From: Reclinomonas americana ATCC 50394
Taxonomy: Eukaryota
Direction of reading: 5' to 3'
NCBI GenBank assembly: GCA_048213135.1
Contig: PS015045.1
Span: forward strand, 37,279-101,278
DNA length: 64,000 nucleotides
Shown here: in pieces, positions 6,152 to 60,471 of the stretch
Position numbering within the stretch: position 1 is the first letter of the stretch
Layout of the letters: each line of letters begins with the position of its first letter
Notes under the pieces: model-generated
The model's input: the letters and a program-made list of their open reading frames with translations, nothing else
Told to the model about the DNA's origin: nothing
The model's database searches: none
Translations under genes and position numbers: made by a program

Positions 6152-7504
6152 TCACAGATGCATCAAGGGATCCGCGCGACAGCGGAACAGCACGCACTCG
6201 GCATCCTGGACCACGAAGCAGCGCAGCACCAACTCTGCCAGCACGCGCGACTCCGCGTCGTCGTCGTTGTCCTCCTCCACCTCCTTCTGCTGCATCTCCT
6301 GGACGGCCTCCATGGCCGCCCGCGCGCGGTCGAACTCGTTCCGAGCAAAGGCGCACGGTGTGGAGAACACTCGCACTGTGTCCTCCTCCATGCCACTGAC
6401 GATGCGCTGGCCGTCGCGAGTAACAGCGATGCCAGTCACTGCAAAAGCNNNNNNNNNNNNNNNNNNNNNNNNNNNNNNNNNNNNNNNNNNNNNGTAGTCG
6501 CACACCTGCTGCACTTCATCCCCGCTCTCGAGCGACCACACTCGCAGAGTGCAGTCAGTACCGCCACTCAGCACATGGCGGCCATCGGGAGTGACGGCAA
6601 CGCAGGTTACTCCGTCGGTGTGTCCCTGCAGCCGATGCACCTCCTCGCCACTCTCCAGCGACCACACGCGCACTGTGCAGTCGTTGCCTCCGGCAATGGC
6701 GAAGCGTCCACAAGGCGTGACCGCGACACAATTCACCGATTCGCGGAATCCCTCAAACAGTCGCACCGCCTCGCCACTCGCCAGTGACCACACTCGCACT
6801 TCCGCGTCACTACTGCCACTGACAACGAGCTGGCCGTCGGGAGTGACAGCGACGGAGTTCACCCGGGCAGGGCACATGTAGCGCTTCAATCGATGCACCA
6901 CCTCGCCCGTCACCAGTGACCACACAAACACTTCCCCATCTCCGCCTCCGCTCACAATGTGCTGGCCATTGGGAGTGACGGCGACGCATATGACCCATCC
7001 AGCGTGCGCCTGGAATCGCTGCACCTCTGCACCACTCGCCAGTGACCACACGCGCACTATCTTGTCCCAGCCGCCACTCACTACGTGCTGGCCGTCGGGA
7101 GTGATGGCGACACAGTACGCCCAATGCTCGTGCATAGGCAGTTGTCGCNNNNNNNNNNNNNNNNNNNNNNNNNNNNNNNNNNNNNNNNNNNNNNNNNNNN
7201 NNNNNNNNNNNNNNNNNNNNNNNNNNNNNNNNNNNNNNNNNNNNNNNNNNNNNNNNNNNNNNNNNNNNNNNNNNNNNNNNNNNNNNNNNNNNNNNNNNNN
7301 NNNNNNNNNNNNNNNNNNNNNNNNNNNNNNNNNNNNNNNNNNNNNNNNNACTTGTTCTCCACTCGCGAGGGCATACAGTCGCACGGTGCCATCGTGATGG
7401 CCAGTGATCACGTGCAAGTCGTCGGGCGTGACAGGCGTGGTCATGGAGCACACTGAACGTGCGCACTCAAACTCGCGTGTGGTGATGAGAAGAGGAGAGG
7501 TCAT
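6152..7504 (-). CDS. WD40-repeat protein, array copy 1 (intronless where visible; two N-gaps), with family-specific C-terminal helical tail
   Basis: Repeats of GH..V.CVAVTPDG.HVVSG..D..VRVWSL.SGE.V; ends TPCAFARNEFDRARAAMEAVQEMQ...RVLAELVLRCFVVQDAECVLFRCRADPLMHL*; ATG at 7504. Confidence 0.85.
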   Translation of the reverse strand: MTSPLLITTREFECARSVCSMTTPVTPDDLHVITGHHDGTVRLYALASGEQXXXXXXXXXXXXXXXXXXXXXXXXXXXXXXXXXXXXXXXXXXXXXXXXXXXXXXXXXXXXXXXXXXXXRQLPMHEHWAYCVAITPDGQHVVSGGWDKIVRVWSLASGAEVQRFQAHAGWVICVAVTPNGQHIVSGGGDGEVFVWSLVTGEVVHRLKRYMCPARVNSVAVTPDGQLVVSGSSDAEVRVWSLASGEAVRLFEGFRESVNCVAVTPCGRFAIAGGNDCTVRVWSLESGEEVHRLQGHTDGVTCVAVTPDGRHVLSGGTDCTLRVWSLESGDEVQQVCDYXXXXXXXXXXXXXXXAFAVTGIAVTRDGQRIVSGMEEDTVRVFSTPCAFARNEFDRARAAMEAVQEMQQKEVEEDNDDDAESRVLAELVLRCFVVQDAECVLFRCRADPLMHL

Positions 7505-8325
7505 GGTGCTGAGCAAGAAGGGAGTGAGCTGCGCGTGTGTGTGGATATGTGAAAGGCGAGTGGCACTGCTCGCGCGCTGGAGCTTTTACCTTTCTAGGTG
7601 ATGCATGAGACCGCCGAAAGAACGTGCTAATGCATTGAAGGCAGGCGGAAAAGTCATCGGAAATGCAGCTTGATTTCTTGGTGCGACCAGCGGTGTCGAT
7701 CGCTGCCCTCGACGCAATGGATCACGTGTTGTTTTTCTGATTTTTCGAGGTACGCCAGCGATCCAGCTACAAAATGGTGTGAGTCACGCGAATAGTGTGC
7801 CACGGGAAGGTCGGGGCTTATGCTGCGCGCCGTCAGAGGGTGTGAGAAAATAAAGCATTTTGTGCACCACAAAAGTTCTGCTTTGTTGCTGGTGCCGCTT
7901 CGCAGCTCATTCGAGAGCTCTAGAAACGGGCTTTTCAACGCTCTGACACGATGAGCGCAAACACACACGAACACCAAGTGAGAAATGGATATGTCATTTC
8001 TCTCAAGAAGCCTGAGAAACCCATCTTGCGAGTTTTTGTTACTGATTGTGTCATCCCCTCCCTTTGATTTACCACGCAGGAATCCGGACGTTGCCTGAAG
8101 GACGACAGTGCAACTCATTTGTTGCACCGCAACTGGAAGCAAAGACAGGGAGACGAGAAACACGACGTTTCTGGTCTTGGAGGGTCGGGTTGGTCACTCG
8201 ACGTTGTCGCCGGTGATCATGAAGAATTCAAAGTCCACGGTGAAGACACCTCAACAAGACGGCCTAAAGACGATTCGTAAAAGTACACTGCTTCGTCACA
8301 AGGGATCAACACTATAGCCCTTCCC

Positions 8326-8710
8326 TCACAATCGCATCGAAGGGTCCGCACGGCACCGGAACAACACACACTCGGCATCCTCCACCAAGAAGCACCGCAG
8401 CACCACCTCTACCAGCACGCGCGAGTCGTCGTCCTCCTCCTCCTCCTGCATCTCCTGGACGACCTCCAAGGCCGCCCTCGCACGGTGAATCTCATCCCAA
8501 GCCAACGCACACGGCGTGCNNNNNNNNNNNNNNNNNNNNNNNNNNNNNNNNNNNNNNNNNNNNNNNNNNNNNNNNNNNNNNNNNNNNNNNNNNNNNNNNN
8601 NNNNNNNNNNNNNNNNNNNNNNNNNNNNNNNNNNNNNNNNNNNNNNNNNNNNNNNNNNNNNNNNNNNNNNNNNNNNNNNNGAGAGGGGCAGGAGGAGGGG
8701 GAGAGGACAT
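8326..8710 (-). CDS. WD40 family copy 2; only the N-terminus and C-terminal tail are visible, and the repeats presumably collapsed into the N-gap
   Basis: MSSPPPPAPL before the gap; TPCALAWDEIHRARAALEVVQEMQEEEEDDDSRVLVEVVLRCFLVEDAECVLFRCRADPSMRL* after it, near-identical to copy 3; flanking DNA is also homologous to copy 3. Confidence 0.65.
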
Positions 8711-9109
8711 GGTGACACAGAGAGGGAGGGAGAAGGAGAGGAGGAGCGGTAGGGAGGGATAGCACGCGGACGAATGAATGTGTGAGAAGCGGACAGAATG
8801 TGCTGGGAGGACAGGTTGTCTTTCAACATTATGAGCACCGCGAAACTCGGATACAACTACAACTCGGCGATAGGGGAATGAGAACGAAGAAAGGGAGTTT
8901 ACTCGACTCGAGTGATTGACAAACACTCAATGTCGGTGAGCTCAGATCGATCAGGGCTGCAGGCCGGAGAGAGACAAGAGGATGTGCCTGCTGCTCGCTG
9001 CATACGGAATAAAAGAAGAGTTGATGTCACAAATCTCGTGAAGTACACTGCTGCGTCACGAGACAGAAAGAGAGAGCACCAGCTTCTCCTGTCTCTTCCT
9101 CTTCCCCTC

Positions 9110-10252
9110 TCACAAATGCATTGAAGGGTCCGCGCGACATCGGAACAACACACACTCCGCATCCTCCACCAAGAAGCACCGCAGCACCACCTCTACCAGC
9201 ACGCGCGAGTCGTCGTCCTCCTCCTCCTGCCGCATTTCCTGGACGACCTCCAAGGCCACCCGCGCACGGTGAATCTCGTCCCAAGCCAACGCACACGGCG
9301 TGCACCACACTCGCAGCATTCCGCCACGGCATCCGCTCACTACGTGCTGGCCGTCGGGAGCGACGGCGACAGACTGCACTTCCCTAGCGTGCCCTTCCAG
9401 TCGGCACACTTCCTCGCCAGTCGCCAGTGACCACAAGCGCACTGTGCGGTCGCCACACCCGCTCACCACGTGCCTCCCGTCGGGAGTGACAGTGACGGAA
9501 TGCACGGGACCTGCGTGGCCCTTCATTTGTCGCACCTCCTCGCCACTCGCCAGTGACCACACTCGCACAGTCCTGTTGTTACCCCCACTCACCACGTGCT
9601 GTCCGTCGGGAGTGACGGCGACAGACAAAACTCTTCCATAGAAGCGATCACCGAAGCGACGCACCTCCTCACCACTTGCCACGGACCACACTCGCACTTC
9701 CGAGTTGTTACTCCCACTGACAACATGCCGACCATCGGGAGTGACGGCGACCGACCATATCAAGTCTGTGTGTCCCTCAAGTACATGCACTTGTTCGCCA
9801 CTCGCCAGCGACCACACGCGCACTGTCTTGTCACTGCTTCCACTCACCACATGCAGCCCGTCAGGAGTGACTGCAACACATATTACTCCTGCAGTGTGCC
9901 CCTCCATTCGCAGCACCTCCTCACCACTCGCCAGTGACCACACTCGCACGGTGTTGTCCCCACTGCCACTGACTACAAACTGACCATCGGCGGTGATGGC
10001 GACAGAGAGAACCCACTTGGCATGTCCCTCCAATCGTCGCACTTCCCAGCCAGTGGCAAGAGACAGCAGTCGCACTGTGCCATCGCGATTGCCACTCACA
10101 ATGTGGTGGCCATCAGCAGAGACTACGATACCACTCACAGAGCCACCACAGCCAAACAGTCGTGAGTAGGGGAAGAGAGGAGGAGGAGGAGGAGGAGGAG
10201 GAGGAGGAGGAGGAGGAGGAGGAGGAGGAGGAGGAGGAGGAGGAGAGGACAT
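9110..10252 (-). CDS. WD40 family copy 3, complete: poly-Pro N-terminus, 7 WD40 repeats, conserved C-terminal tail
   Basis: Gap-free intronless ORF; MSS followed by ~22 Pro encoded by a (CCT)n tract; seven ~42-aa repeats counted; tail ...LFRCRADPSMHL*. Confidence 0.9.
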   Translation of the reverse strand: MSSPPPPPPPPPPPPPPPPPPPPPPLFPYSRLFGCGGSVSGIVVSADGHHIVSGNRDGTVRLLSLATGWEVRRLEGHAKWVLSVAITADGQFVVSGSGDNTVRVWSLASGEEVLRMEGHTAGVICVAVTPDGLHVVSGSSDKTVRVWSLASGEQVHVLEGHTDLIWSVAVTPDGRHVVSGSNNSEVRVWSVASGEEVRRFGDRFYGRVLSVAVTPDGQHVVSGGNNRTVRVWSLASGEEVRQMKGHAGPVHSVTVTPDGRHVVSGCGDRTVRLWSLATGEEVCRLEGHAREVQSVAVAPDGQHVVSGCRGGMLRVWCTPCALAWDEIHRARVALEVVQEMRQEEEDDDSRVLVEVVLRCFLVEDAECVLFRCRADPSMHL

Positions 10253-10703
10253 TGTGTCACAGAGAGGGAGGGAGAGGGAGAGCGCGCAAGGAATGTACTG
10301 TATGCGCGGGAGTTTGAGGGACAGAATGATGGGAGACCGCGTCTTCGTCTTGCAGCTTCTCTTCTGCACTATGAGCACCACGAAACGCGAGTACAAGCTA
10401 CATTCGGCAACAGGGAGAAGGAGAACGATGATAACGGGTTCACTCGACTTGTGAATGCACAGCATAATATGCATGCTTCGACGTCGAGGGCGTCGAGTTT
10501 GCGAGCCACTTTGGAGGGCATCACCAGATGATGCAGGTGGGTGGTGGATGAGGTGCCAGGCCGGTAATTAAATGAATCAGTTGTTTTGTGCGTGCAGAAG
10601 ACAACTCAAGAACGAGATTAAGGGCGCTTCGTGAAGTACACTGCCATGTCCCGACGAGGGGAGAGCGTGTGCAATTGAGAGAGCAGCGTCTTCCTTGACA
10701 TCT

Positions 10704-11937
10704 TCACCCCTTCCTCTCCCCTTGGTCCGCACGACATCGAAAGAGCACACACTCGGCATCCTCCACCAGGAAGCACCGGAGCACCACCTCTGCCAGCACT
10801 CGCGAGTCGTCCTCTTCCTCCTCCTGCATCTCCTGGACGACCTCCAAAACCGCCCGCGCACGGTCCAGCTCGTTCCGTGCGAGTGCGCACTGCGTGGACC
10901 ACACTCGAACAAATCTGCCGCTGCCGCTCACCACCTGCTGACCGTCGGAAGCGACGGCGACACACTGCACCCACGCAGTGTGACCGCCAAACTGCCGTTC
11001 CTCCTCTCCACTCTCAAGCGACCACATTCGCACGGTCATATCACCACCGCCGCTCACTACGTGCCTCCCGTCGGGAGTGACAGTGACAGAATGCACCGGA
11101 CCAGTGTGCCCCTCCATCGGTCGCACTTGCTGGCCACTCGCCAGAGACCACACACGCACTATGCGGTCCACACTTCCACTCACCACGTGCTGGCCATCGG
11201 GTGTGATGGTAACAGCATGCACGCCTCCCCCGTGACCCCCAAATCGCCGCACCTCCTCACCCCTCACCAGTGACCACAAGTGCAAGGTGTAGTAATCACT
11301 CCCACTGACAATGTGCCGACCATCGGGAGTGATGGCGACTGAATACACCACCCCGGTGTTTGCCGCACACCGTTGCACGAGNNNNNNNNNNNNNNNNNNN
11401 NTCCTCACCCCTCACCAGTGACCACAAGTGCAAGGTGTAGTAATCACTCCCACTGACAATGTGCCGACCATCGGGAGTGATGGCGACTGAATACACCACC
11501 CCGGTGTTTGCCGCACACCGTTGCACGAGTTCTCCACTCGCCATCGACCACACGCGCACTGTGCGGTCAGCACTCCCACTCACAGCGTGCTTCCCATCGG
11601 GAGTGACGGCGACACAATGCACCGGTTCAGTGTGTCCCTCCATTCGCCGCACCTCCTCGCCACTCGCCAGTGACCACACGAGCACAGTCTTGTCCCAGCT
11701 GCCGCTGACTACAAACTGACCATCAGCTGTGACGGCCACTGATGTCACCCACCTGCTATGTCCCTCCATTCGTCGCACCTCCTTGCCAGTCACCAGAGAC
11801 AACACTCGCACACTGCCATCTTGGTGGCCAGTCGCAACGTGCTGACAGTCGGGTGTGACGGTGACACAGTTCACGGAGCCTCCACTGCCAAGCAGGCAGT
11901 GGCTGGGGAACAGAGGAGGAGGAGGAGGAGAGGACAT
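10704..11937 (-). CDS. WD40 family copy 4 (7 repeats once the duplicated overlap around the 20-N gap is collapsed)
   Basis: MSSPPPPPLFPSHCLLGSGGSVNCV... The ~128 bp on each side of the gap at 11382-11401 are identical, so the two ORFs join into one. Tail ...CALARNELDRARAVLEVVQEMQ...LFRCRADQGERKG*. Confidence 0.85.
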
Positions 11938-12320
11938 GGTGTCACACAGAGGGAGGGAGAGAGGGTGAGAGCGCGCTGGTGATGTGAATGCGTGAGAGTG
12001 TGGGGGACAGAAAAATCGAGGAGGACAGGTCTTCCTTCTGACCACTTGCCGCTCCTCTTCCTCCTGCTCATCATCATCAGTACGTTCCCTGCGCACAGTT
12101 TCTCTGAGCACCACGAAGAGTACAACTGCAAGTTCAGCGACAGGGAGAGGGAGAACGAAAAAAAGGTTCACTCGACTTATGATGCAACGTCTCTGCAAGG
12201 CCGGAAAGGAATTCAGTTGCTTGCTGTTTGGCGCAGATACTCAACAACCGGATAAAGGCGCTTCGTGAAATACACGGTTATGCCCCGACGAGAGAGAAAG
12301 AGAGCAGAGTCTTGACATCT

Positions 12321-13247
12321 TCACCCCTTCTCTTCCCCTCGGTCCGCACGGCACCGAAACAGCACACACTCGGCATCCTCTACCAGGAAGCAGCGCAGAA
12401 CCATCTCTGCCAACACGCGCGCATCCCCCTCCTCTGTCAGCATCTCCTGGACGGCCTCCATGGCCGCCCTCGCAGCNNNNNNNNNNNNNNNNNNNNNNNN
12501 NNNNNNNNNNNNNNNNNNNNNNNNNNNNNNNNNNNNNNNNNNNNNNNNNNNNNNNNNNNNNNNNNNNNNNNNNNNNNNNNNNNNNNNNNNNNNNNNNNNN
12601 NNNNNNNNNNNNNNNNNNNNNNNNNNNNNNNNNNNNNNNNNNNNNNNNNNNNNNNNCTGACCGTCGGGGGAGACGGCAACCGAGTGCACGACACGCGTGT
12701 GTCCCTGCAGCCGACGCACCTCCTCGCCACTCGCCAGTGACCACACGCGCACACTTCTGTCTCCACATCCGCTCACAATGTGCTGGCCATCGGGAGTGAC
12801 GGCGACTGTGGAGACTCCACTTTGGTGGTTGTCAAATCGTCGCACCTCATTCCCCGTCGCCAGTGACCACACTCGCACAGAGTTGTCACTGCCTGCGCTC
12901 ACGACATACCGACCATCGGGGGTCACAGCAACACACCACAGGTTGTTCAGGTGCCCCTCCATGCGTCGCACCTCCTCGCCACTCGCCAGTGACCACACTC
13001 GCACAATGCTGTCATAGCCGCCACTCACAATGTGCTTGCCGTCGGGGGTGACGGCGACAGAGTACACCCACTTGTTGTGCCCCTCCATGCAACGCACCTC
13101 ATCCCCTGTCGACAGTGACCACACGCGCACTGTGCCATCGTGGATGCCACCCACCACGTGCATTCCATCGGGCGTGACGGCGACAGAGTACACTGCACGT
13201 AGCCAGCTTGACACCCACAGGCTGTTGACGACGAGAGGAAACGACAT
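12321..13247 (-). CDS. WD40 family copy 5 (gap in the last repeats)
   Basis: MSFPLVVNSLW...AVYSVAVTPDGMHVVGG, five repeats visible before the gap; tail ARAAMEAVQEMLTEEGDARVLAEMVLRCFLVEDAECVLFRCRADRGEEKG*. Confidence 0.85.
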   Translation of the reverse strand: MSFPLVVNSLWVSSWLRAVYSVAVTPDGMHVVGGIHDGTVRVWSLSTGDEVRCMEGHNKWVYSVAVTPDGKHIVSGGYDSIVRVWSLASGEEVRRMEGHLNNLWCVAVTPDGRYVVSAGSDNSVRVWSLATGNEVRRFDNHQSGVSTVAVTPDGQHIVSGCGDRSVRVWSLASGEEVRRLQGHTRVVHSVAVSPDGQXXXXXXXXXXXXXXXXXXXXXXXXXXXXXXXXXXXXXXXXXXXXXXXXXXXXXXXXXXXXAARAAMEAVQEMLTEEGDARVLAEMVLRCFLVEDAECVLFRCRADRGEEKG

Positions 13248-14077: not shown

Positions 14078-17000
14078 GTGAGTGAGTGAGAGAGACAATG
14101 AGTGAGTGAGTGAGAGAGACAATGAGTGAGTGTGTGTGTGTGTGTGTGTCGTTTGCTGACGATTGCTGACGATTGCTCGTCTTTCTCTGCTCTTTAGATC
14201 TTGTTGGATAAGAAGCAGCGGAACCAACTCAAGTTCAAGATCAAGATGCTGTTGCACGATGAGCGATTGCAGCCGCGTGATTGTTGCGTTTGCGAAGCTT
14301 TGCATGTTGGTGTTCGTTTGTCTGTGCGATCGCCTTTCTGCGTTTCTGCATTCCAAGCCATCCTCGCACTCCACTGCCGATGGTCAAGTTACCGCCGCTC
14401 ACGCGCTGTCTATCACGAAGAAGCGACTGTGTTCATTCAAGCACGAGAGTCTTCTTCTCTCCCGCTCTTCCAAAGCACGGCTGATTCGTTGCCTGATATG
14501 TGTCTCTATTGTCTCCCTTTGCTACATGCACACTCCCGATCTCTTTGAGTGAGCCTTGCTCCTGTGTGCTCCTCTTTCCAGTCCAATTGATCATTTTTAT
14601 CTCTCTCTCTCTCTCTATGTATGTGTGCGTGAGTGCGTGAGTGTGTGTCGCTAGATGATCTGGCTTTGACTCCTCTTCCAAAGCACGGCTGATTCGTTGC
14701 CTGATATGTGTCTCTGTTGTCTCCCTCTGCGGCATGCACACTCTCCATCTCTTAGAGTGTGTTAGCTTATGTGTGCTCGTCTTTCTGGTCCATGGGATCA
14801 TTTGCGTCTCACTCACTCTCTCTCTCTCTCTNNNNNNNNNNNNNNNNNNNNNNNNNNNNNNNNNNNNNNNNNNNNNNNNNNNNNNNNNNNNNNNNNNNNN
14901 NNNNNNNNNNNNNNNNNNNNNNNNNNNNNNNNNNNNNNNNNNNNNNNNNNNNNNNNNNNNNNNNNNNNNNNNNNNNNNNNNNNNNNNNNNNNNNNNNNNN
15001 NNNNNNNNNNNNNNNNNNNNNNNNNNNNNNNNNNNNNNNNNNNNNNNNNNNNNNNNNNNNNNNNNNNNNNNNNNNNNNNNNNNNNNNNNNNNNNNNNNNN
15101 NNNNNNNNNNNNNNNNNNNNNNNNNNNNNNNNNNNNNNNNNNNNNNNNNNNNNNNNNNNNNNNNNNNNNNNNNNNNNNNNNNNNNNNNNNNNNNNNNNNN
15201 NNNNNNNNNNNNNNNNNNNNNNNNNNNNNNNNNNNNNNNNNNNNNNNNNNNNNNNNNNNNNNNNNNNNGCAGCAACTGCAGCAGGAGCAACCGCCGTCTC
15301 AGCCGCATCATCACCATCACCACCACCATCACCTCGCACCACCGCAATCCTCGACCAAGCATCACCGATTGTCGCCAACAGACTCGTGGAGGCGATCGTC
15401 GGCCAGTGGAGAAAGAGGAGGAGGAGGTGGTGGTGGTGGTGGTGGTGGAAGTGCAAGGAGGACATCCACCTCGCCCGGCAGTGGGAGACGATCGCGCAGC
15501 CCCACTGCATCGCAGCCTGCGGCAACGTTGCCGCAATCGACGCGACCGACCATTACTGCACCCCTGCGCACGTCGGCTCTACCGACGACCACGGAACCCT
15601 TGTCGCCGGCCGATTTGTCGCGACTGAACAAGTCGCCACGCTCGCCAGAGGATGCTGCCGCCGCTCGCGCGTTCCTCGCGTCGGTTATGGGCGCGCCACC
15701 ACCTCCAGCGACCACCACCACCACCACGTCCACGACGACCACGGCCACGTCGCCACCGCCTGTGGTCTTTAACGCAGCGCCGTCGGCATTCTCACCTCCG
15801 CGCGTGCGTGCCAACGGCACGGGTGCGTCGCCACCGCGACAGAGAGAGGACGCAGCAGCAGCTCGAAACATGCCCTCGCAGTTTATCGCACAAGCGCCGC
15901 CCTCTGCCGACTTGTTTGCCGAAGCCAGCAAGCAATTATTGGCGCATGTGGGATCGTTGCGTTTCTCGACTCGGCGTGCTCTCGAAGGGGGATGACATGG
16001 TTGCCTCACTCTCTCTCGCAGTCCACCTGCGCAGGAGGCTGGCGGAGCGAATGGCAGCTTTCTCGCACCTCCAACATCTGCTTCGAATGTTCAGCGTGCC
16101 TTTACACCGCCGAGCTCGCCACCAGCACCCGCGCCACCTGTGCACACACCCGTTCCGTCCACCGTATCGCGCAGGTGAGCGCAGTGTTCCTTCATTGTTC
16201 GTGTGTCTCGCCACGCACTCACTCGCTTCCATATGGGGCAGTTCTGACGCCTCACCGTCACCCGCGCTCTGTATTCTCGTCCGAGCCGTTGCCAGTCCGG
16301 CCATGTCGATTGAGGTGTCACCGCGCACCACTGTGGGCAAACTGAAATCACTGATTCAGGAGCGGAACGGTGCACCGGTGGAGGCACAGCGGCTGGTGTT
16401 CCTCGGTCGTATGTTGGACGACGACTCACGATCACTGGCCGACCTCAAGGTCACCAACGACAGCACCGTGCAACTGGCTGTGCGTGGTCAGCGGCGCGAT
16501 GTGAACGGGACGGTGACCATGTCGCCACTCACGCTGATGGTGCCGGGACAGATGCCAGTTGCGTGAGAAACACGATCCATTGCTGCCAGGCAGCACCGCC
16601 ATCCGTGTTTCAACTCTCCTGATTTACTCTTCTCGTTGTCTGTTCTCATTTTTATGTCATGCTGTCTCGCCTCACTTACTCTCCAAGCTCACGCTTCCCT
16701 TTCCTCTCTCACATATCTATTTTGTCTCCGTTCTTATCGTGGACCATCCATCTCGTGTCTTCCCTCGTCGTACTCATCGCTGCAGCTGTCCTTCGCGTGC
16801 CTGTGATCTCGCTTTCATCCTTTCTCGCTTCATGCGTCAACCCTCTTCCTTTGTCTTCCTCCTGCCCCTCTAGCTCACACACTCTGCTTCTGTCCGTCCC
16901 TCTCAGTCCCTCTCTCATCCTCTCCCTCTCCGTCTCCCTCTTCCCTCTTCCCTCTCCCTGTCCCTCTCCCTGTCCCTGTCCCTCTTCCCTCTTCCCTCTC

Positions 17001-17806
17001 CCTGTCCCTCTCCCTCTCCCTCTCTCTCGCCCTCTCCCTCTCCCCCTCTCTCGCCCTCTCCCTCTCCCTCTCCCTCTCCCTCTCCCTCTCCCTCTCCCTC
17101 TCCCTCACCTTTGCCCTCTCCCTCACCCTCTCCGCAGCCACCACCTGCCACAGCATCCACCGCTTCCCCTTCCATCCCTTCTGCCCCTTCCGCCCCCTCC
17201 GCCCCTTCCATCCCTTCCGCCGCCCCTCCATCACAAGCAAGCTCCAACGGCTCCTCGCCGGCCAGCTCCGTGTACCTACCACGCACCGCCAGTGCGACGG
17301 TCGGCGCCGGCGTTCCGCTCGGCTACCGCGTCCCGTTGGCCTCGCCGCACTCGCCGGCTACTTCGGACTCGCTGAACACGACCAGTGCCGACATGTCGCC
17401 GTCGACGCCAGGCAGTCACCCGCGGTCGGCCTCGATGAGTCCCACGGCGGCGGCCCGTGTTCGTGCACGGATACGCGACGTGTGTGCACGCTCGGAAGAC
17501 GCCATGCGTCCATCGCACCCCGCTCGTCGTGTGTGGAAGGACATTATGCGTGCACATGCTGCGCTGGGAGCGGATCACAAGGTGGAGTGCTTGAAGGTCG
17601 AATCGTTGCTCGGTGAGTCTCTTGCTGTTGTTGTCGTGAACGGGCTTTCTGTCGTGTGACTCAACTCCCGATCAGAGGAACTGTCGGCCATTGTTACCGA
17701 GCAGACCAATCTTCTGTCGTTTATCATGGAACGCGGTGGCATTCCGCAGGCGCCCATGTCGCCTCCCAGTGGCACGCACCAAAACGGATTCGACATGAAA
17801 TTGTAA
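13781..17806 (+). CDS. Low-complexity (Q/H/G/T/P-rich) protein with an internal ubiquitin-like domain and a C-terminal helical region; multi-exon
   Basis: ATG 13781. Ubl-like segment ILVRAVASPAMSIEVSPRTTVGKLKSLIQERNGAPVEAQRLVFLGRMLDDDSRSLADLKVTNDSTVQLAVRG at ~16273-16490 (QRL.F.G..L.D motif). Last exon EELSAIVTEQTNLLSFIMERGG...FDMKL ends at TAA 17804-17806. Continuity across the 14832-15268 gap is inferred. Confidence 0.6.
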
Positions 17807-17944
17807 ACCACGCTGTACTAAGTAAGGCATTTCTTATCCACACACTTTAAAGAGAGAGAGAGAAAGTAACAAGATTTGAACAAGATTGGCTGTCGATTCA
17901 CACACGCGGACGAGGCACGCGGACCACCGACGAAAAACATATCA

Positions 17945-20900
17945 TTAGACTCTTCTGGACAGCGACGCCGACACACCCGGCTGCTGCTGCTGCTGCTGTG
18001 GAGGCCACGGCGGCAATTCTGTGGAGCTCTGCACGCGTCGTGCAGCCACCGCAGTTGTCGTGGCTGCGCCCGCCGGCACCGCCTGTCGCACAAACTGCAC
18101 GTGCACGAGAATGCACTGCTCCGTGCGACCATCCTCGTCGTTGACAAACACATACACGTGTCGCGTAGCCTCCTGTGATTGGGCCGGCAAGCGCAAGCGA
18201 ATCCAACCCTTCTCTCCCGGACCGAGGCGCAGTTGCTCCGCTCCCACCGGAATCGACATGAGAGGCGGATGGCTGGTGCGAATGGTGAACGTGCGCGCCA
18301 TTTGGAGTGCGTTGCGGAAGGAGATTTTCTGAGAGGAAGCGAGTGAGTGAGATGCAAGCACACACTCACCCTGAGAAGAATGAATGCCAACACACCCTCT
18401 TCGACTCCTCATTGAGTGGCAACACAATGTCGAACTTGTAGTCCACTGCCGGCGGCGCAGCGTGACACACGGCAAGAGTGGAGTACAGAATGACACCCGC
18501 AGAAGCATCTGCAGAAAATGCGTCAACGGCTGATGCAGCACAAACACAGCAGCCAACGGCTCCGCGTACCGAGCGTGTTGAGAATGATCTCTGCTTGCCC
18601 CGGCTCACGCGGCTGGAACTCCAAATCCAGCACCGTTGTGGAACCCGGCTGCACCACCACCGGCACCGCTGGCACTGTGTTCAACACCGGATTGGACGAC
18701 ACCGTGACCACCTACACACAACAAAAAACCCGCATGTAAGTGACTTGTCCACGTGTGTGCTCCCTCCCTTCTTTTTCTCTCACCTGCATCGGCGCCGCAC
18801 TCGTCAACACCGGCAAGCGCAGCATGTCGCGCGACACCTGGCCAGCCGTCCCATTCACGCTCAGCTTGTTCAGCGGGTGCACCGTCACCTCCCACAAATC
18901 CGTCAAATTGACCAGGAACGAATCGCTGTAGAGGCACACGAGGAAGGTGCTGGGCTGGCCCACGTCGCCGCAACGGACGCGCAAATCCACCAGGTGCATC
19001 TCGCTCTCCACTTGTCGCTTGCGCACCGTCACTTGCGCCTCGGGTGTCGTGGAGCATCCGTACCGCTGCTCCACCGGATACAAACGCACCGAGCTCACGC
19101 TGTTGCCGACGGCGGAGGACGGTGGCGGTGGACCGTCGGTCCACGCCTGCGCGTCTGAGACGGCGCCGGGGAAGAGGTGGGCCATGTAGGCGTCGCCGAG
19201 TGTGCCCGGTCGCAGGCACAGGCTCTTGCGGAAGATCTCGTTGCGGCCGCAATAGAACGAAAAGTGACTGTCGACCACGTGCGGGCGCATCTCGATCTCG
19301 AACGACAGAATGCGGAACACGTCGCCCGAGCCGTCGTAGATGGTCACCTCGGCGTGCCGCAGCTGACCGCCGCGTCGACGCAGGGTGTCCACAGGAATGT
19401 CGGGGGCGCGCAACGTCTTGAACACAAACGGCAACTGCAGCGTCTCTCCCGGATGTACCGTGACCACGCCGTCGCGATCGGCCAAACCCTCCTCCACTGG
19501 AATTCCGCTGCGTGCTCGGCCAGCGGCAAACGGATTCGCCTGCTCGGCCGAGATCTCACGCAGCAGCTCCCACTCCACCGGCTCGGTCACCAGTCGCAGC
19601 TCCGATTGATCGCCTGAGGAAGAGGAGGGGTGTGGGCGTCATTGGGGGATGAAGGGGCGCCGAAAGTACTCAAATATACCTTCCACAACCACTCGCAGCA
19701 ACTGCGGCTGCTGTGTGGGATTCTGCAGCGTGTACTCGTAGAACACGGCGTAGCCGACGGAGCTGCGGAGTCGCACCGTGTCGGTCAGGGTCTTGCGCGC
19801 AGCCATTTTGGCGGCCTCGAGTCGGTGATCGGTGCGGTAGTTCTCCACCGACACCATCATTTTGTCGGGCGCACCAATGGCGGCACGCTGGTGATGCAGC
19901 TCCTCGCGCACGCCCTGCATGGGTCGGGCGTGCAGAAGAGGGTTTTCTGGGGGGAGTGGAGGAGAGAGAAAAGGGTGAGGACAGGGGAAGTGTGAATGAG
20001 AGAAGGGAACTGAGAAGGAGTCAGAAAGCAAGAGTGAGAAAGTGCGATATGATGGTACACTAAACGAATGAAGAAGAAGAAGAAGGAGGAGAAGGGGAGA
20101 GGAGAAGAAGAAGAAGAAGAAGAAGAAGAAGAGAGAGAGGAGAGAGCTAACAAGATGAAAGACTGGGAGACATGGGTACGTCCAGTCTCCAAACCGTCAG
20201 TCTCACAGTCTCTCCCTGTCCTTCAAGTCTCAACCTCTCAACCTCTCAGTCTTCCTATCTCTTCTCCCTCCTTCTCCCTTTCCTTCTCCTCCCTCTCCTC
20301 CTCCCTCTCATCTCCTTCCCCCAGCTCACCTGCTGGACCAACCACCGGCAACCCGCTATCATCGCGACAGCCGATGCAGGCCAACCGCAAATGCAACTTG
20401 CCGACCACATACTGCCGTGCGGTGAACGAGTCCACGTCACTGATGACGGGGCACGACAGCAGCTGCTTCACGCCCTGTCGCTGCTGCCGCAGCAGATTGC
20501 GCAACGGCGCATGCACACGCCCAATGACCGTCTGCGTGTCACTGTCCCACACATCGATGACGATGGTGCGGCACATCATGTACTTGAGGAAGTTCTCAAA
20601 CTCGGCCGCGGACATGCCGTTGCGCTCGACGCGGTGGCGGATTTCGAAGCCGCTCTGTGTGAGGAAATAAGGAGGAATGGGTGAGCGTGTGAATTGGGAA
20701 TGAATCTCATGTCTCCTCTCTTCCCTGGCAATCCACACTCTGACTGAGAAAGCCAAAGTGCTGCGCTTGCTCTTGTCTTGCGGACACAGGCATTCCCACT
20801 GTCCTCTCTCATTTTTTCATTGCACTTCAATATCCCCACTGCATTCTTTCTCCTTCCTTTCTGTGGCTCTGCTCCCTCTAAACTCACATTCGACACATGT

Positions 20901-23900
20901 CTCGACTGACGAGAGAGCCAAAACGCTCCCTCTAGCTCTCATGCATCCTGTTCCTTTGTTCACTGCTCCATTGGCCATTTCTCTCTCCCTCACAGACTCA
21001 ATGGACGAGAAACCCACAAAGTTGAGTCGTTCTTTCTCTCGCACACGCACTCCAATTCAAAACAAACCCGACAGATATTTCTCTCGACCCTGTTGTAGCT
21101 TATCAAACCAGAAACATCTCTATGTCCCCTCTTCTGCCCCATCTCGACAGAAACGCCCGCCTCCACTTGACAACCGCATTCTTTCTCCCTCTCTCTCTCT
21201 CGTCCCTTCCATTCCCTTATCTTCCTTCCCCTTCATCCCTCCCTCACGAACATTGTCCATTCCCTTTTCCTTCATCCCCCTTCCCCCGCATGCCCCTTCC
21301 CCNNNNNNNNNNNNNNNNNNNNNNNNNNNNNNNNNNNNNNNNNNNNNNNNNNNNNNNNNNNNNNNNNNNNNNNNNNNNNNNNNNNNNNNNNNNNNNNNNN
21401 NNNNNNNNNNNNNNNNNNNNNNNNNNNNNNNNNNNNNNNNNNNNNNNNNNNNNNNNNNNNNNNNNNNNNNNNNNNNNNNNNNNNNNNNNNNNNNNNNNNN
21501 NNNNNNNNNNNNNNNNNNNNNNNNNNNNNNNNNNNNNNNNNNNNNNNNNNNNNNNNNNNNNNNNNNNNNNNNNNNNNNNNNNNNNNNNNNNNNNNNNNNN
21601 NNNNNNNNNNNNNNNNNNNNNNNNNNNNNNNNNNNNNNNNNNNNNNNNNNNNNNNNNNNNNNNNNNNNNNNNNNNNNNNNNNNNNNNNNNNNNNNNNNNN
21701 NNNNNNNNNNNNNNNNNNNNNNNNNNNNNNNNNNNNNNNNNNNNNNNNNNNNNNNNNNNNNNNNNNNNNNNNNNNNNNNNNNNNNNNNNNNNNNNNNNNN
21801 NNNNNNNNNNNNNNNNNNNNNNNNNNNNNNNNNNNNNNNNNNNNNNNNNNNNNNNNNNNNNNNNNNNNNNNNNNNNNNNNNNNNNNNNNNNNNNNNNNNN
21901 NNNNNNNNNNNNNNNNNNNNNNNNNNNNNNNNNNNNNNNNNNNNNNNNNNNNNNNNNNNNNNNNNNNNNNNNNNNNNNNNNNNNNNNNNNNNNNNNNNNN
22001 NNNNNNNNNNNNNNNNNNNNNNNNNNNNNNNNNNNNNNNNNNNNNNNNNNNNNNNNNNNNNNNNNNNNNNNNNNNNNNNNNNNNNNNNNNNNNNNNNNNN
22101 NNNNNNNNNNNNNNNNNNNNNNNNNNNNNNNNNNNNNNNNNNNNNNNNNNNNNNNNNNNNNNNNNNNNNNNNNNNNNNNNNNNNNNNNNNNNNNNNNNNN
22201 NNNNNNNNNNNNNNNNNNNNNNNNNNNNNNNNNNNNNNNNNNNNNNNNNNNNNNNNNNNNNNNNATCCCCTTCCCCTTCATCCCCCATCCCCCTCATCCC
22301 CCTTTCCCCGTCATCCCCCTTACCCCTCATCTCATCCCACTCACCGTCTGCGCACCCGCCGCATCCGTCGCATGATGTGACGCCGAATCGTGGGAGAGCA
22401 GGCACATGGGATCATTCGGATCGGCACCGCGCACGAGCTGCATCGGCGCCCGACGAGTGTTGACCAGTGGGAACCAGAAGAAGCGCACGGAAAAGTGCAC
22501 GCGACGTGGAGGACCAGCGTAGCCGCCTGCAACGCACGCCACAGCCGTGAGACTCGGCACAAGAGATCGTACATGCGCGCAAAGACAAACCGAGCGGGAC
22601 TGCAGTCGTGTCCGCCGGTGTGTAGGCCCAGAATTGGGCGACAAACTCGTTCACGTCCAGCACATCGGTACTCTCCAACGCAAAGTCAATGTCGTCCAGC
22701 GCCTGTGGCCAGTCATTCAGTCAGCTCCTCCATTCGATTTGGTGCACAGAAGAGAGAGACGGCGACGCACCTTGGCATTCGGAATCCCGTTGACAGAGCT
22801 GGTGACGTAGCTGACATCGATGAGCGGCAGACCGTGCTCGTTGGTCAGCGTCGGAATGTCCATTTCCATCAACTTGCGCAGCTCCGACCGCGTCATCCGC
22901 ATGCCACTCGGGTAGCCGCCGGGTTGCACGGCCGGTGCGCCGATTGAACTCTGCATCGTCACGGTGAGACATCTTCGGAAGAACGCAAGAGGAGTTGTGG
23001 TGCACTGACCGCCATACTGGCGCCAACAGGCACATGGAAGGTCGACACCGGCAGTTCGTCTTCATCGTCCCACTCGCGGCGCGAGCGTGAGCGCGCATTT
23101 GTCGGTGATATGCTCATCTCAGGCGCCGCCGCGTTGCCGGCATCGGTCATCTTTGCCGGCGGATCGGCCGTTGGGGTTGCTGTCATCATAAATGAATCAC
23201 GAGGTGAGCGTGGAAGTGCTGCACTTTGCTGAAAGGAACAAGCTGACGCAACTGAGCTGGAACACGGCCGATGCCTGCGAATGACCGCCGCTGCGTGTGA
23301 CGGCAAACGCTCGCACAAAGTACCTTCCGCCGGGAGTCAGTCCGTGGAAGGTGGCAACCAGCCCGTTGCCGTCGCGCGTATATCCAAGGACTTCGCGCTT
23401 CAGCGTGTCGACCTTGTCTGCGGGACGGAAATGGTAAGGCACATGCATGATCCCAAAAGGCGGATGCGAAGAAAAGCAGATTCAACTGTCGGTCGAGAAC
23501 GCCGGCGATGAGCACAGCTCAAACTCGTGACGCGACACAATGGCCAACTTGGGCGCCTCCAGCTCCACTTCTGCGGTGGTCGCCGACAACGCGGTGGCCG
23601 ACAGAATCGCTGGCGCTGTGGACCACGCCCGTTAGTTAGCAACAGACAATCACGTGTACTTGTCAGAAGGAGGCGAGCACACACCGGGAGGCACAGGAGC
23701 CGCTGGCTCTGATGGTGGTGGAGGGGCCTGTGCGCGGGCGGGTTCGGCATCCGGCGCCCCCGCACCCGTTGCTTCCTTCGAGGACATCACGTGATGCGTG
23801 CTCGCCTCGTGGTTGACTTGTGCGGGTGCAGGTGTCGGTTGCGGAAGTGGGAGATCTGCAGAGCGATATCACACACGACGCATGAGCATTGAGACTGCAA

Positions 23901-50046: not shown

Positions 50047-54752
<4,706 letters not shown>

Positions 54753-55008
54753 TCCACTCGACCGCGTTGCGCTTTGTGAGCGCTCTCTGCAGCGAGGAAG
54801 AAGAAAAAGTTTCGAACCCACCGAACAATTTTGTCCTCGCAGCTCTCGCTGATAAAGGTGGCACACTTGCACTGTGACCTGGAAGCATGCAACAGTGACG
54901 AGAAGTACAGGAGGTGCATCACCAGCATCTTCGCAACCAAAAACACATGCCGGCGCCGGTGATCGCGTGTTTGTCTGAATCTTTCGTCATGAAGACCGGG
55001 CTTCTCAC

Positions 55009-58000
55009 TCATTCACTCTTCCCCTTCTTCCCATCACCTCCCACCCACCACCACCCCCGCCCCCGCCAACTCAGGAGCCGCACCACCCCACCCCCACCCA
55101 CCTCTCCCGCCATCCTCCTCACAATCCGCTCCATCTTCTCCTGACTCGACCTCGCCAGCGGATGCTGTTCACCAAGCTGACGCGCCACATTGCACGCCAC
55201 CTGCTGCGTTCTCCGCGCCTCCTCGTACTTGCCCTCGTAGAACAGCGTCGACGCCAACCGACACTGCGCACGAATGGTCGCCTGACTGCCGGCTCCGACG
55301 GTGCTTGCCAGCTGCGAACAGACCTGACGCAGCATGCTCTCCGCCTTTTGCAGCAGCTTCGCTCGCTCGCTGTCCGACATGCGACCGCGCACCGCTCTCG
55401 CACGCAGCGTCAGCGCGAGCGCCGACTGCGCCTCGGCGGCGCGGTGGTCCGAGTAGCCGTACAGTCGGCGATTGGCCGCCAGCATGCTGCGCTGCATGCG
55501 CTCCGCCTTCGCATAGTTGCCCTGCTTGCAAATGGTGCGTGCGAGGAAGCCGCACGCCATTAGCGTCATGGGATGATGACGGCCGAACATGCTCTCCGCA
55601 ACCGACAGCGCCTCAAACTGCGCGTCCAGTGCCTCCCGGTAGTCGGGCGTCACCGACTGGTGGCGAGCGGCCTTGACCTTGGCCACCCACAAGTGACTGC
55701 GCGCCACGATGGTGTTCGGGTGGCTGTCGCCGAGGAGCCTGCTGATCGACCTGACGGCCTTCTCCTGCACCGCCACCGCCTCGTCGTACTTGCCAGAGTC
55801 GTAGAGCACCAGTGCCAACCGGCGCTGCAACTGCACCAGCTCCAACTCGACGTTGCGCTGCAGAGTGATGCTGCCTGACAGCGTCCGAAGGAGAAGTGTG
55901 CCCTTGTCGATCAGGCCCGCCAGCAACGCTGCGGCCTCGTCGTGCATGCCCGAGGCGCGCAGTGCCGCGGCCAGTTGCATCTGCATCGGCAGAGTGTCGA
56001 CATCAGAACCACGCGGGTGGAGCCGCTTGTAACTCTCAACGCAGGCTCGGAGAATTGTCGCCGCACGCTTGGCCACCTCCACGGGCACCTGGTGTGAGGA
56101 GAAGAGTGAGCAGAGTAGGAGATGGAATGACAATGAAGGAATGAGCTGTGCATACCAGACGGGGCATATCGTGCTCGGCGGCAATGTTCGTCGCAATGTA
56201 GGCAGCCACGTGCCAGCGCTGCATGGTTTGCTGATCCTCGGCTGTGCACTCACAGTCAGCAACCGACAATGGAAGACAGAAGAACATGATGCGGAACTCA
56301 CGAATTCGGTGAGCTCCAAAAATGTCCGTCTCGAGCTTCTCTAGGTAATTCGCCCAGAGAGCCGGGTCTGCAGGGAAGAGTCTCAGTCGCAGCGATCAAA
56401 GTAATGAACCCGCAATTGTATCCGAACCATCACCGCGCAAATTGAAGAGCACCNNNNNNNNNNNNNNNNNNNNGTACACATTCTCACTCCCCTGCATGAA
56501 TGGGAAGGAAAGAACGGACACAGTCTCGTCGCCCATCTCTCCTGTACACATTCTCATTCCCCTGCATGAATAGGAAGGAAAAGAACGGACACAGTCTCGT
56601 CGCCCATCTCTCCTGTACACATTCTCACTCTCCTGCACTCACTATTCTAGAAACTTCACTGATCGGCACACAACAATGAGCATCTACCAGTGATCGCCAA
56701 CAAGTCTCGTGTACCTATACTCGCAGCATTCAACGACACAGAGTGCGAAAACATCAAGCGGACGGCGACGCAATGAGAGAGAGAAGCGACAAAAACTCTT
56801 CTCCTTCTCATACGGTTCGGTTTTTCGCTCATTCAAGCCCGAGTATCTTGACGCATTGTCACTCTCCGTCTATTCCCCCGCCTTACTTCCTTCCCCCCTC
56901 TCTGGCTCTCTTCTCTCAGGCCTTCGGCGTCGTTCTCTTTTCTTGCCTTCCATTCGCTTCCATCTTCCCACCCTTCAATTCCTTCTCTCTCCTTTCCCTG
57001 GCACGCTCACTTTTCTCGTTTGCCTCCTTTCCCTCCTTCCCATGCCCTTCCTTCCTTGCTTTCCCTGCCTTCATTCCGTCTCCTCCTCTCGCACTCTCAT
57101 TTATCTCTTCTTTCTTCCCTTCCTCCCTCCCCCTCTCTGGCTCCCTTCTCTCAGGCCTTCGGCGTCGTTCTCTTTTCTTGCCTTCCCTTTGCTTCTGTTC
57201 TCTGTCTCTGTCTCGATATCTTCCCCCCATCCCTTTCTAATCCCTTGTCTTACCTTCTCTCTTCTTTCCCTGGCACTCTCACTTTTCTCTTTTGCCTCCC
57301 GCCACTTCCTTCCTTTCCCTTCCCTTCCCTTCCCTTCCCTTCCCTTTCCTTCCGTCACTTCCTCGCTTCCTTTCCCTTTCCTTCCCTTTCCTTCCCTTCC
57401 CTTCCCTTCTCCTTCCCCCTTCCCCCTCACACTCACAATCGTCGATCCAAGACTGTGGCCATGTAGGCACACGCGGTACTCATGCCGCTCCGGCTTCTCA
57501 CCCGCCGCCTCACCGCCAAACGAATCAGCGCGGCTCCTGGCGCACGCGGGAGCGAGCTCGTCAAACACCCACTGCATCACCTCCTTTGCTTCATCGAAAC
57601 GCTCATTGGGGCCACCGAGTCCGGTGACCATTTTGAAGTCCGTCCAAAAGTCGCTCGCAGTGGCAAAGCTGGCACGCGTGCCGGCGATGCAAATGTTGAT
57701 CTCGCGGTGCTTGTGGTCCACCTGCGCGAAAGAAGGGAAGTGAGCAGAAGGGAAAGAAGGAGGAAGGGTGAGGGAGGGAGAGAGACAAAAGACAGAGGAA
57801 TAGAGAGACCGACAGAGACTGCGAGGGATAGGGGAGAAGCTCAACTGACGGACAGGAAAAATACAAAGAAAGCAGCATGGGTGAAAACTGGAGTGAGGGG
57901 GAAAAGACATTGAAAGTGAAAGACGACAGAGACCGCGAGGGAGAGGACAAGAGTAGAAGTAGCTCAACTGACGGACAGGTAAATACAAAGAACCATCTGC

Positions 58001-59388: not shown

Positions 59389-60471
59389 TCACAGTCGCAA
59401 CGACGGATCAGTCGCGCAGCGATGCACCACCACCTCCGCCTCCTCCACCATGAAGCACCGCAGCACGATCTCCACCAGACACCGCCGCTCCACTTCGCCC
59501 TCCGCCGCCTGCATCTCCTGCACCGCGCGCAGAGCAAACCGCGCCCGCGCAAGCTCACGAGTCGCGAGACCACACGGCGTCGCCCACAGACACAGCGCCA
59601 TTTCGCCACCGCCAGCACTCGCCACAAACTGCCCATCCGCACTGACGGCGACCGACTCCACGCTCCACGCATCGACTTTCACCCTCGGTGCCACTTCTTC
59701 GCCACTCGCCAGCGACCACACGCGCACAGTGCAATCATTGCTGGCACACACCACTCGTTGACTATCCACCGTGATCGCCACCGAGTTCACCGCATGAACA
59801 CGCCCATCCAACCGCTGCACCTCCTTGCCCGTCACCAGCGACCACACTCGCACCATGCCATCCCGCGAGCCACCACTGACCACGTGCCGACCATCGCGCG
59901 TGACCGCAACGCACTGCACACCATCGACATGCCCGTCCAGGTGGCACACCTCGCGCCCATTCTCCATTTGCCACACGCGCACCACTCGATCCGTGCCGCC
60001 ACTCACCACATATCGCCCGTCGACGGTGATGGCCACACACAGCACCCACCCTGTGTGCCGGTTGAAGAGTCGCATCTCCTCGCCTGTCGCCAGTGACCAC
60101 ACGCGCACAGTCTTGTCCCAGCTGCCGCTGACAATGTGCAGGTGGTCGACAGCCACTGAGCTGACATACATGGTGTGTCCCTCCAGTCTGCGCACCTCCT
60201 CGCCCGTCGCCAGCGACCACACGCGCACAGTCATGTCACTGCCTCCGCTCACCACGTGGCGGCCGTCGGGAGTGACGGCGACGCACAGTACCTCGTCGGT
60301 GTGCTCGCCAAACTCTTGCACTTGTGTGCCAGTGGCCACGGACCACACGCGCACGGCGTGGTCTTCCCCGCCGCTCACAAAGTGCTGGTTGTCGGGGGTG
60401 AAGGCGACGCAGTGTTGGGGGGAGAAGTCGCCGAGGGGGGTGGCGCAGAGGGAGAGGAGTGGGGAGGTCAT
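59389..60471 (-). CDS. WD40 family copy 6 (diverged, intronless, 7 repeats + same C-terminal tail), located between lipase-TPR copies B and C
   Basis: MTSPLL start as in copy 1; seven repeats; tail TPCGLATRELARARFALRAVQEMQAAEGEVERRCLVEIVLRCFMVEEAEVVVHRCATDPSLRL*. Confidence 0.9.
   Translation of the reverse strand: MTSPLLSLCATPLGDFSPQHCVAFTPDNQHFVSGGEDHAVRVWSVATGTQVQEFGEHTDEVLCVAVTPDGRHVVSGGSDMTVRVWSLATGEEVRRLEGHTMYVSSVAVDHLHIVSGSWDKTVRVWSLATGEEMRLFNRHTGWVLCVAITVDGRYVVSGGTDRVVRVWQMENGREVCHLDGHVDGVQCVAVTRDGRHVVSGGSRDGMVRVWSLVTGKEVQRLDGRVHAVNSVAITVDSQRVVCASNDCTVRVWSLASGEEVAPRVKVDAWSVESVAVSADGQFVASAGGGEMALCLWATPCGLATRELARARFALRAVQEMQAAEGEVERRCLVEIVLRCFMVEEAEVVVHRCATDPSLRL

What the first reader, a model, noticed from the sequence alone, without database searches (positions are those of the whole stretch)
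6152..13247. Tandem array of intronless seven-blade WD40 genes with homogeneous repeats but hypervariable surface positions
Seen in sequence: five consecutive same-strand paralogues (unit ~1.5 kb, flanks also homologous), intronless where visible, although every single-copy neighbour is intron-rich. Each complete copy has exactly 7 repeats with a near-invariant scaffold (VAVTPDG.HVVSG..D.TVRVWSLASGEEV). The residues after GH (AKWVL, TAGVI, TDLIW, AGPVH, AREVQ, SRWVT, NKWVY, LNNLW) and after SG (SG, SS, SN, GN, CG, SW, SA, GY) change in almost every blade. Established knowledge: these are the top-face binding positions of WD40 propellers, the ones diversified in Podospora HET-E/HNWD allorecognition proteins. 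Inference: a repertoire of variable binders, i.e. receptor- or substrate-adaptor-like genes, spreading by retroposition or transfer followed by unequal crossing-over.
Basis: partly seen in the sequence, partly recalled or inferred. Interest (0 to 1): 0.72.

Follow-up and report, generated by a model that had tools for sequence, protein, structure and literature searches.

The report
NLR-derived stand-alone WD40 binder library
These five neighbouring genes belong to a family of roughly six hundred small ring-shaped binding proteins in a single-celled flagellate; they use the same building block as the cell's immune-type receptors, each has a different binding face, and all end in one undescribed tail, which looks like an inherited library of binders feeding one shared, still unknown partner.

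Summary
Confirmed, with corrections. The array recurs on a second colinear contig, so the copies are not mis-assembled alleles. The family is huge: 1,065 + 152 exact tail-pattern hits (controls 0) in an apparently two-haplotype assembly, about 600 per haploid set. Variation peaks at the top-face positions selected in Podospora HET-E. These sites differ between paralogues (20 of 28) but hardly between haplotypes (2 of 60). Selection looks episodic: omega about 3 on 37% of branch-site combinations, but 1 or less site-averaged. Recent blade shuffling was not found. The blades share amino-acid and codon consensus with the WD40 domains of at least 97 NACHT (NLR-type) hits in the same genome. The tail matches no Pfam or PDB family and only three library proteins, one a Reclinomonas (jakobid) EST. 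Best reading: a fixed library of variable binders with a constant adaptor tail, probably for defence. The partner is not shown; a cullin ligase is my leading guess. The scan noted this family repeatedly on other DNA of this genome.

The parts
6152..7504 (-). Copy A: WD40 propeller + tail, most diverged copy; gaps 6449-6493 and 7149-7349
   Evidence: tail pattern hit C37:43479
8326..8710 (-). Copy B: first 10 codons and tail visible; propeller lost in 161-N gap (8520-8680); seven blades seen on the second contig C35:227435-228305
9110..10252 (-). Copy C: complete intronless 380-aa ORF, poly-Pro leader, 7 WD40 repeats, tail; blades 1-2 are mosaic relative to its counterpart on C35
   Evidence: (7 PF00400 stretches)
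9110..9304 (-). Conserved ~60-aa tail of copy C: helix, acidic linker, helix with core E-x-x-L-R-C-F-x-V-E-x-A; no Pfam or PDB family
10704..11937 (-). Copy D: 7 repeats + tail; apparent frameshift is a 20-N gap with a 128-nt assembly overlap; intact 362-aa ORF on C35
12321..13247 (-). Copy E: four blades, part of a fifth, gap 12477-12656, tail
8276..12276 (.). Homologous spacer motifs repeated in three to four spacers (tandem DNA duplication units)
59389..60471 (-). Sixth, dispersed family member (360 aa), with a 97%-identical counterpart on C35

Best explanation
A germline-encoded library of about 600 (per haploid set) stand-alone WD40 binders. One seven-blade propeller of the same repeat lineage as the sensor domain of the cell's NACHT-WD40 (NLR-type) genes was joined to a constant two-helix tail and amplified by tandem and dispersed DNA duplication. 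After duplication the top-face residues diverge quickly to a new specificity and are then held by purifying selection. The variable face binds a target, most likely foreign proteins from engulfed or infecting bacteria or viruses; the constant tail hands the target to one shared host partner. Shown: architecture, copy number, location of variation, repeat kinship with NLRs, tail conservation. Inferred: defence role and adaptor function. My leading guess for the partner (about 0.3) is a cullin-RING ubiquitin ligase, through DDB1 (H-box-like helix) or an Elongin-C-like protein, leading to target degradation.
For: Copy number: 583+482 and 71+81 exact pattern hits, controls 0; single-copy genes occur in pairs. 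Entropy 3.4-4.0 bits at repeat positions 4, 5, 7, 23, 25 against 0.3-2.7 elsewhere; 642 distinct six-site codes in 728 blades. Positions 5, 7, 23, 25 have the spacing of HET-E codons 7, 9, 25, 27 (PMC1805685 passage) and lie in d-a/b-c loops and the start of strand a (DSSP). Non-synonymous rate 1.65-2.84 against 0.06-1.01 at all other positions. Branch-mixture test: omega 2.98 on 37%, 2dL 41.8; four control sets 15.1, 0.5, 0, 0; largest of 32 null simulations 6.0. Paralogues B'/C' differ at 20 of 28 such codons against 23 of 168 scaffold codons (omega 1.97 vs 0.23, p 0.03); haplotype pairs at 2 of 60 (omega 0.29, p 0.02). NLR kinship: 97 NACHT hits of 287 candidates; 116 blades from 14 NLR ORFs are 64.4% identical in DNA to 670 stand-alone blades (within-class 65.8% and 65.1%), third positions 0.49 against 0.40 expected, same variable sites. 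Tail omega 0.19-0.25 over 22 pairs, and its core is kept in two divergent WD proteins from other samples. A family member exists as an EST. The host encodes DDB1, an Elongin-C-like and two Skp1-like genes, and 13 cullin C-terminal loci. The tail core has a hydrophobic residue and an invariant Arg at H-box positions 7 and 10 (PMC9975947 passage).
Against: Site-averaged omega at the variable positions is 0.66-0.99 with site-specific synonymous rates, and 0.78-0.92 over 22 pairs, above 1 only in the 10 older pairs with a shared synonymous rate (1.38; 0.98 when freed); relaxed constraint explains much of this. One control set also gave 2dL 15.1, and my models ignore recombination and multi-nucleotide changes. 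The tail matches no F-box, SOCS-box, PRANC or LisH model and has Phe and Ile/Leu/Met/Val where the H-box prefers L/I/V and Gly. No target, partner or induction is known. 13 of 137 assessable loci had short or broken ORFs. Conservation between haplotypes is not what a fast arms race would usually give.
Confidence: 0.55

Rival explanations
1. Detached sensors of an NLR network: each propeller senses a ligand, and the tail (alone or as an oligomer) activates or restrains the genome's NACHT-WD40 proteins, as in sensor/helper pairs, with no ubiquitin ligase involved.
For: Shared repeat lineage and variable sites with the NLRs; both families massively expanded and mostly intronless; members lie within a few kb of NLR genes on C986 and C4074; tail is a helical hairpin typical of interaction modules.
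Against: No NLR seen beside this array; the tail is absent from the NLR ORFs read; no recent blade exchange between the classes (maximum 87%).
Confidence: 0.2
2. Lineage-specific adaptors for ordinary cell regulation (many host substrates), without a defence role.
For: Variable sites conserved between haplotypes; trypanosomes, also Discoba, have lineage-specific cullins with novel kelch and LRR adaptors lacking an F-box (PMC12816148 passages); highly repetitive WD40 proteins in general vary at hotspot sites (PMC5587647 section 11).
Against: About 600 paralogues, tandem birth-and-death, broken copies and NLR-type repeats are the pattern of defence families; trypanosome adaptor sets listed are a few genes each.
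Confidence: 0.15
3. Largely non-adaptive amplification: a stable propeller gene is copied by unequal crossing-over and its exposed top face simply drifts.
For: Site-averaged omega close to 1 at the variable positions; short or broken ORFs at 13 of 137 loci.
Against: Purifying selection on scaffold and tail (omega 0.2-0.3) and on the variable sites between haplotypes; other exposed positions have far lower rates; episodic test exceeds all 32 null simulations.
Confidence: 0.1

Closest known systems
Podospora anserina HNWD/NWD NLRs (HET-D, HET-E); Paoletti et al. 2007, PMC1805685 (passages read)
   Same: WD40 repeats with a fixed scaffold and the same four variable codons on the interaction face; a NACHT-WD40 family with the same repeat exists in this genome.
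   Different: Stand-alone single propeller with no NACHT or HET domain; about 600 genes instead of 10; blades about 65% identical instead of up to 100%; no recent repeat shuffling; diversity lies between paralogues, not between haplotypes; novel C-terminal tail.
Highly repetitive WD40 proteins (Hu et al. 2017, PMC5587647, abstract and section 11 read; PDB 5yzv, best Foldseek match, TM 0.97 to target)
   Same: Consensus-like, internally repetitive propeller with diverse hotspot residues.
   Different: Here a very large eukaryotic multigene family with a constant tail of no known family.
Cullin-RING substrate receptors with WD40 (DCAFs with H-box; WSB1/2 WD40-SOCS box; F-box-WD40)
   Same: Variable propeller plus short constant helical module; H-box positions 7 and 10 fit; Atlas lists WD40-SOCS clusters at 0.84-0.86 for the divergent relative P0002, a lead only and possibly due to the propeller alone.
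   Different: No F-box or SOCS-box profile match; H-box positions 12-13 differ; module is C-terminal; binding to DDB1, Elongin C or Skp1 is not established.

Membership tests
HNWD/NWD fungal-type NLR | NACHT NTPase domain | tested here: not met
   ATG directly precedes blade 1; 350-380 aa; Pfam shows only WD40-type models among the 25 best shown
HNWD/NWD fungal-type NLR | N-terminal effector (HET) domain | tested here: not met
   only a short leader before the propeller
HNWD/NWD fungal-type NLR | Four variable codons per repeat flanking two conserved residues on the interaction face | tested here: met
   entropy peaks at 5, 7, 23, 25 (and 4), same spacing as codons 7, 9, 25, 27
HNWD/NWD fungal-type NLR | Site-wise positive selection at those codons | tested here: inconclusive
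   site omega 0.66-0.99; episodic test 2dL 41.8 against null maximum 6.0; one control set 15.1
HNWD/NWD fungal-type NLR | Concerted evolution: near-identical repeats exchanged within and between genes | tested here: not met
   within-gene 0.649, between-gene 0.652/0.646; 0 cross-position pairs at 90% or more among 728 blades; in-register mosaic of C blades 1-2 only
F-box-WD40 / PRANC-type receptor | F-box profile match | tested here: not met
   0 of 67 tails match; genome scan with PF12937 gave 24 matches, none at a listed family locus
WD40-SOCS box (WSB) | SOCS-box profile match | tested here: not met
   0 of 67 tails; 0 matches genome-wide
DCAF (CRL4 receptor) | H-box helix: L/V at 7, R at 10, L/I/V at 12, G at 13 | tested here: inconclusive
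   M/I/L/V at 7 and R at 10, but F at 12 and I/L/M/V at 13; the paper notes low motif conservation
DCAF (CRL4 receptor) | WDxR motif in repeats (feature recalled, from no call) | tested here: not met
   positions 30-33 are W-S-L-A
Any cullin substrate receptor | Physical binding to DDB1, Elongin C or Skp1 | not testable with these tools
   needs pull-down or modelling with spliced host proteins
Known structural class for the tail | Specific fold match | tested here: inconclusive
   helical hairpin, pLDDT 75; best Z 8.3 (rmsd 2.8, 64 aligned), tied with many unrelated hairpins
Highly repetitive WD40 (Hu 2017) | Conserved repeats with diverse hotspot residues | tested here: met
   their identity cut-off was not applied

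The most novel reading that the evidence does not exclude
A free-living jakobid has turned the WD40 sensor of its NLRs into about 600 stand-alone intracellular binders, each coupled by a new helical box to one ubiquitin ligase: an inherited, antibody-like 'bind and destroy' immune repertoire in a single-celled eukaryote, with a new adaptor motif.
Probability: 0.3. Interest if true: 0.85.

Novelty: new variant of a known kind. Interest (0 to 1): 0.64.

Why it matters
Immune repertoires of free-living protists are barely described. A deep-branching eukaryote with about a hundred NLR-type hits and about 600 stand-alone propellers from the same repeat pool gives a direct test of whether NLR sensor domains can be redeployed as modular binders. 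The constant tail gives one handle (a pull-down) to find the pathway for the whole family. The family is also a natural sample of which residues can vary on a seven-blade propeller face, useful for binder design.

Tried and rejected
Complex prediction of the tail with a stand-in plant DDB1 (two pieces) and the host Elongin-C-like protein: no answer (ipSAE 0.00 and 0.00, alignments not used, partner fold uncertain); neither for nor against binding. Tail against the 5.8-billion protein set: 0 of 38 candidates, near lengths only; PDB sequences 0; Atlas best 0.76; viral contigs 0 of 24; metagenomes 1 of 17, a wrong-frame chance match. Fold search of the tail listed no F-box, SOCS or LisH chain among 50 rows, which excludes nothing. 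The first dN/dS fit did not converge and was replaced. Pfam gave no family for the NLR N-terminal 264 aa, so 'HEPN-like' rests on a recalled R-N-x3-H motif seen in some copies. Mis-assembled alleles rejected. Literature searches (listings only) showed no paper on this family; the library lacks most subscription papers and supplements were not searched. The neighbour's NPHP4-like label is recalled; Pfam gave only weak C2, MSP and Ig-like hits.
Full report
Observation. The window (G000:C37) carries five minus-strand paralogues between 6152 and 13247. C is complete (380 aa, seven PF00400 stretches). D is complete once a 128-nt exact duplication around a 20-N gap is seen as an assembly overlap. 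A and E have internal gaps, and B's propeller is lost in a gap. A sixth member lies at 59389-60471.

Not mis-assembled alleles. Contig C35 is colinear with the window over about 16 kb of flank at 88-94% identity in its long blocks and holds E', D', C', B' and the 5' end of A' in the same order, apart from a small gap-bounded inverted piece. Single-copy genes come in pairs (four CPSF_A-type genes twice each; Skp1-like genes). I read the assembly as holding two haplotypes; a genome duplication or two strains would look similar.

Family size. A degenerate pattern for the tail core has 1,065 exact hits, and a second, non-overlapping variant has 152; reversed controls give 0. That is at least 1,217, or about 600 per haploid set. 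Of 200 distinct tail occurrences in the loci fetched by then, 124 had an intact-length ORF, 13 were short or broken, 28 ran into gaps and 35 were cut by the locus edge; 104 with a clear ATG were analysed. This sample favours close relatives of the query and dense arrays. 103 of the 104 have seven blades. Some subfamilies appear to have a short 5' intron (GT-AG after four codons), so the family is not strictly intronless.

Host. A tail profile against 1.84 billion representatives gave three hits: an EST-derived protein labelled Reclinomonas americana by EukProt, 80% identical to the nearest of the 104, and two unnamed proteins with divergent, non-repetitive propellers and the same tail core. 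The host is probably a jakobid, a family member is transcribed there, and the tail seems older than the homogeneous repeats. Expression of this array is not shown.

Structure. AlphaFold on 56 members gives a closed seven-blade propeller and two helices, 301-325 and 332-356 (mean pLDDT 89; tail 59-79). The best fold match is the repetitive bacterial propeller 5yzv. The tail alone is a helical hairpin with no specific match and no Pfam or PDB sequence family. Its 'invariant' core is partly a result of how I picked members, but the two outside proteins keep it too.

Where the variation lies. Counting from the G of GH, entropy is 3.4-4.0 bits at positions 4, 5, 7, 23 and 25, 2.7 at position 3, and 0.3-2.3 elsewhere; 728 blades give 642 six-site codes. 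Positions 5, 7, 23, 25 have the spacing of HET-E codons 7, 9, 25, 27 (PMC1805685, passages). They fall in the d-a loop, the start of strand a and the b-c loop, which form the top face by established WD40 geometry; I could not measure the coordinates.

Selection. Results are mixed. Over 22 disjoint pairs omega is 0.78-0.92 at the four sites, 0.26-0.28 on the scaffold and 0.19-0.25 in the tail. In the 12 pairs of 92% identity or more it is 0.26-0.33. In the 10 older pairs it is 1.38 with a shared synonymous rate (p 0.001) but 0.98 when that rate is freed. On the 104-gene tree the non-synonymous rate is 1.65-2.84 at the five sites and 0.06-1.01 elsewhere, yet site omega is 0.66-0.99. A branch-mixture model gives omega 2.98 on 37% (2dL 41.8); control sets give 15.1, 0.5, 0 and 0; 32 null simulations reach 6.0 at most. 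In this array, B' and C' differ at 20 of 28 such codons, while 15 haplotype blade pairs (C blades 1-2 left out as mosaic) differ at 2 of 60. The simplest reading is a burst of change after duplication, then fixation. My models ignore recombination and multi-nucleotide changes, which can inflate the test.

Shuffling and spread. Blades are 65% identical within and between genes, and no two blades at different positions reach 90%, so HET-E-like concerted evolution is not operating now. C and C' differ at blades 1-2 (68%, 81%) but not 3-7 (91-99%), which points to in-register exchange with a paralogue. Shared spacer motifs favour DNA-level tandem duplication; nothing supports retroposition.

Link to NLRs. 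The ORFs read encode an N-terminal domain, NACHT, pentapeptide repeats and up to about 14 WD40 repeats. 116 blades from 14 ORFs share the consensus, the variable sites and many position-specific codons with the stand-alone blades: 64.4% DNA identity across classes against 65.1-65.8% within, third positions 0.49 against 0.40 expected, maximum 87%. The two families share a repeat ancestor; the direction (NLR to stand-alone) is inferred, not tested with a root.

The tail's partner. It is not a canonical F-box or SOCS box. It fits H-box positions 7 and 10 but not 12 and 13 (PMC9975947, passages). The host has DDB1, an Elongin-C-like gene, two Skp1-like genes and 13 cullin C-terminal loci, and trypanosomes use non-canonical adaptors with Skp1 paralogues (PMC12816148, passages). 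This makes a ligase link plausible, not shown.

Verdict. A real, ordinary-sized piece of an extraordinary family. It works like the HNWD sensor repertoire but is not a member: no NACHT, no effector domain, no concerted evolution, diversity between paralogues rather than haplotypes. No paper on it appeared in five searches (listings only; supplements not seen). The scan noted the family many times on other pieces of this genome; those notes are not independent support. New variant of a known kind; interest 0.64.

Noticed in passing
G000 genome-wide, e.g. L146-L160: At least 97 NACHT hits; long apparently intronless ORFs with N-terminal domain (R-N-x3-H motif in some, no Pfam hit), NACHT, pentapeptide repeats and about 14 WD40 repeats; some seem preceded by an in-frame ubiquitin-like-looking stretch (L156, L157, L159; impression only).
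   Followed up: partly
window 50050-61988, minus strand: About three tandem copies of a TPR_12 gene (50050-51252, 55012-56340, 60948-61988) with shared further exons and a lipase-like exon (57104-58111; likeness recalled, no Pfam hit); the sixth WD40 member sits among them.
   Followed up: partly
window 10160-10245: Copy C has a GGA/CCT microsatellite encoding about 24 prolines; its counterpart on C35 has 5 to 6.
   Followed up: no
window 10704-10730 and 12321-12347: Copies D and E end in a different last octapeptide than the family's D-P-x-L-x-L end, on both haplotypes; the C51/C56/C58 subfamily stops even earlier, so the last residues are dispensable.
   Followed up: partly
L186-L215 (152 pattern hits): Second tail type with W-x-L-V-D-V-V-L-R-C-F; it resembles unnamed protein P0003, while type 1 resembles P0002, so both types may predate this genome's repeats.
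   Followed up: partly
L096/L098 (C71, C72, C46, C152): Two distinct SF3B3-like genes, each in two haplotype copies (label recalled from sequence likeness).
   Followed up: no
L051:1501-1872 (+): Divergent Elongin-C-like gene with one in-frame intron; no SOCS-box match anywhere in the genome.
   Followed up: partly
L166 (C175:93500-96500), minus strand: Gene joining a UEV/TSG101-like domain, a coiled coil and an IRAK/Pelle-like kinase (labels recalled), head to head with a family WD40 gene.
   Followed up: no
G000:C35:228498-229268: Gap-bounded segment inverted relative to the window, probably a scaffolding error caused by the repeats.
   Followed up: no
window 16300-21300: Split genes next to the array: a ubiquitin-like-domain gene and an NPHP4-like gene (labels recalled; only weak C2 and Ig-like Pfam hits).
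   Followed up: partly
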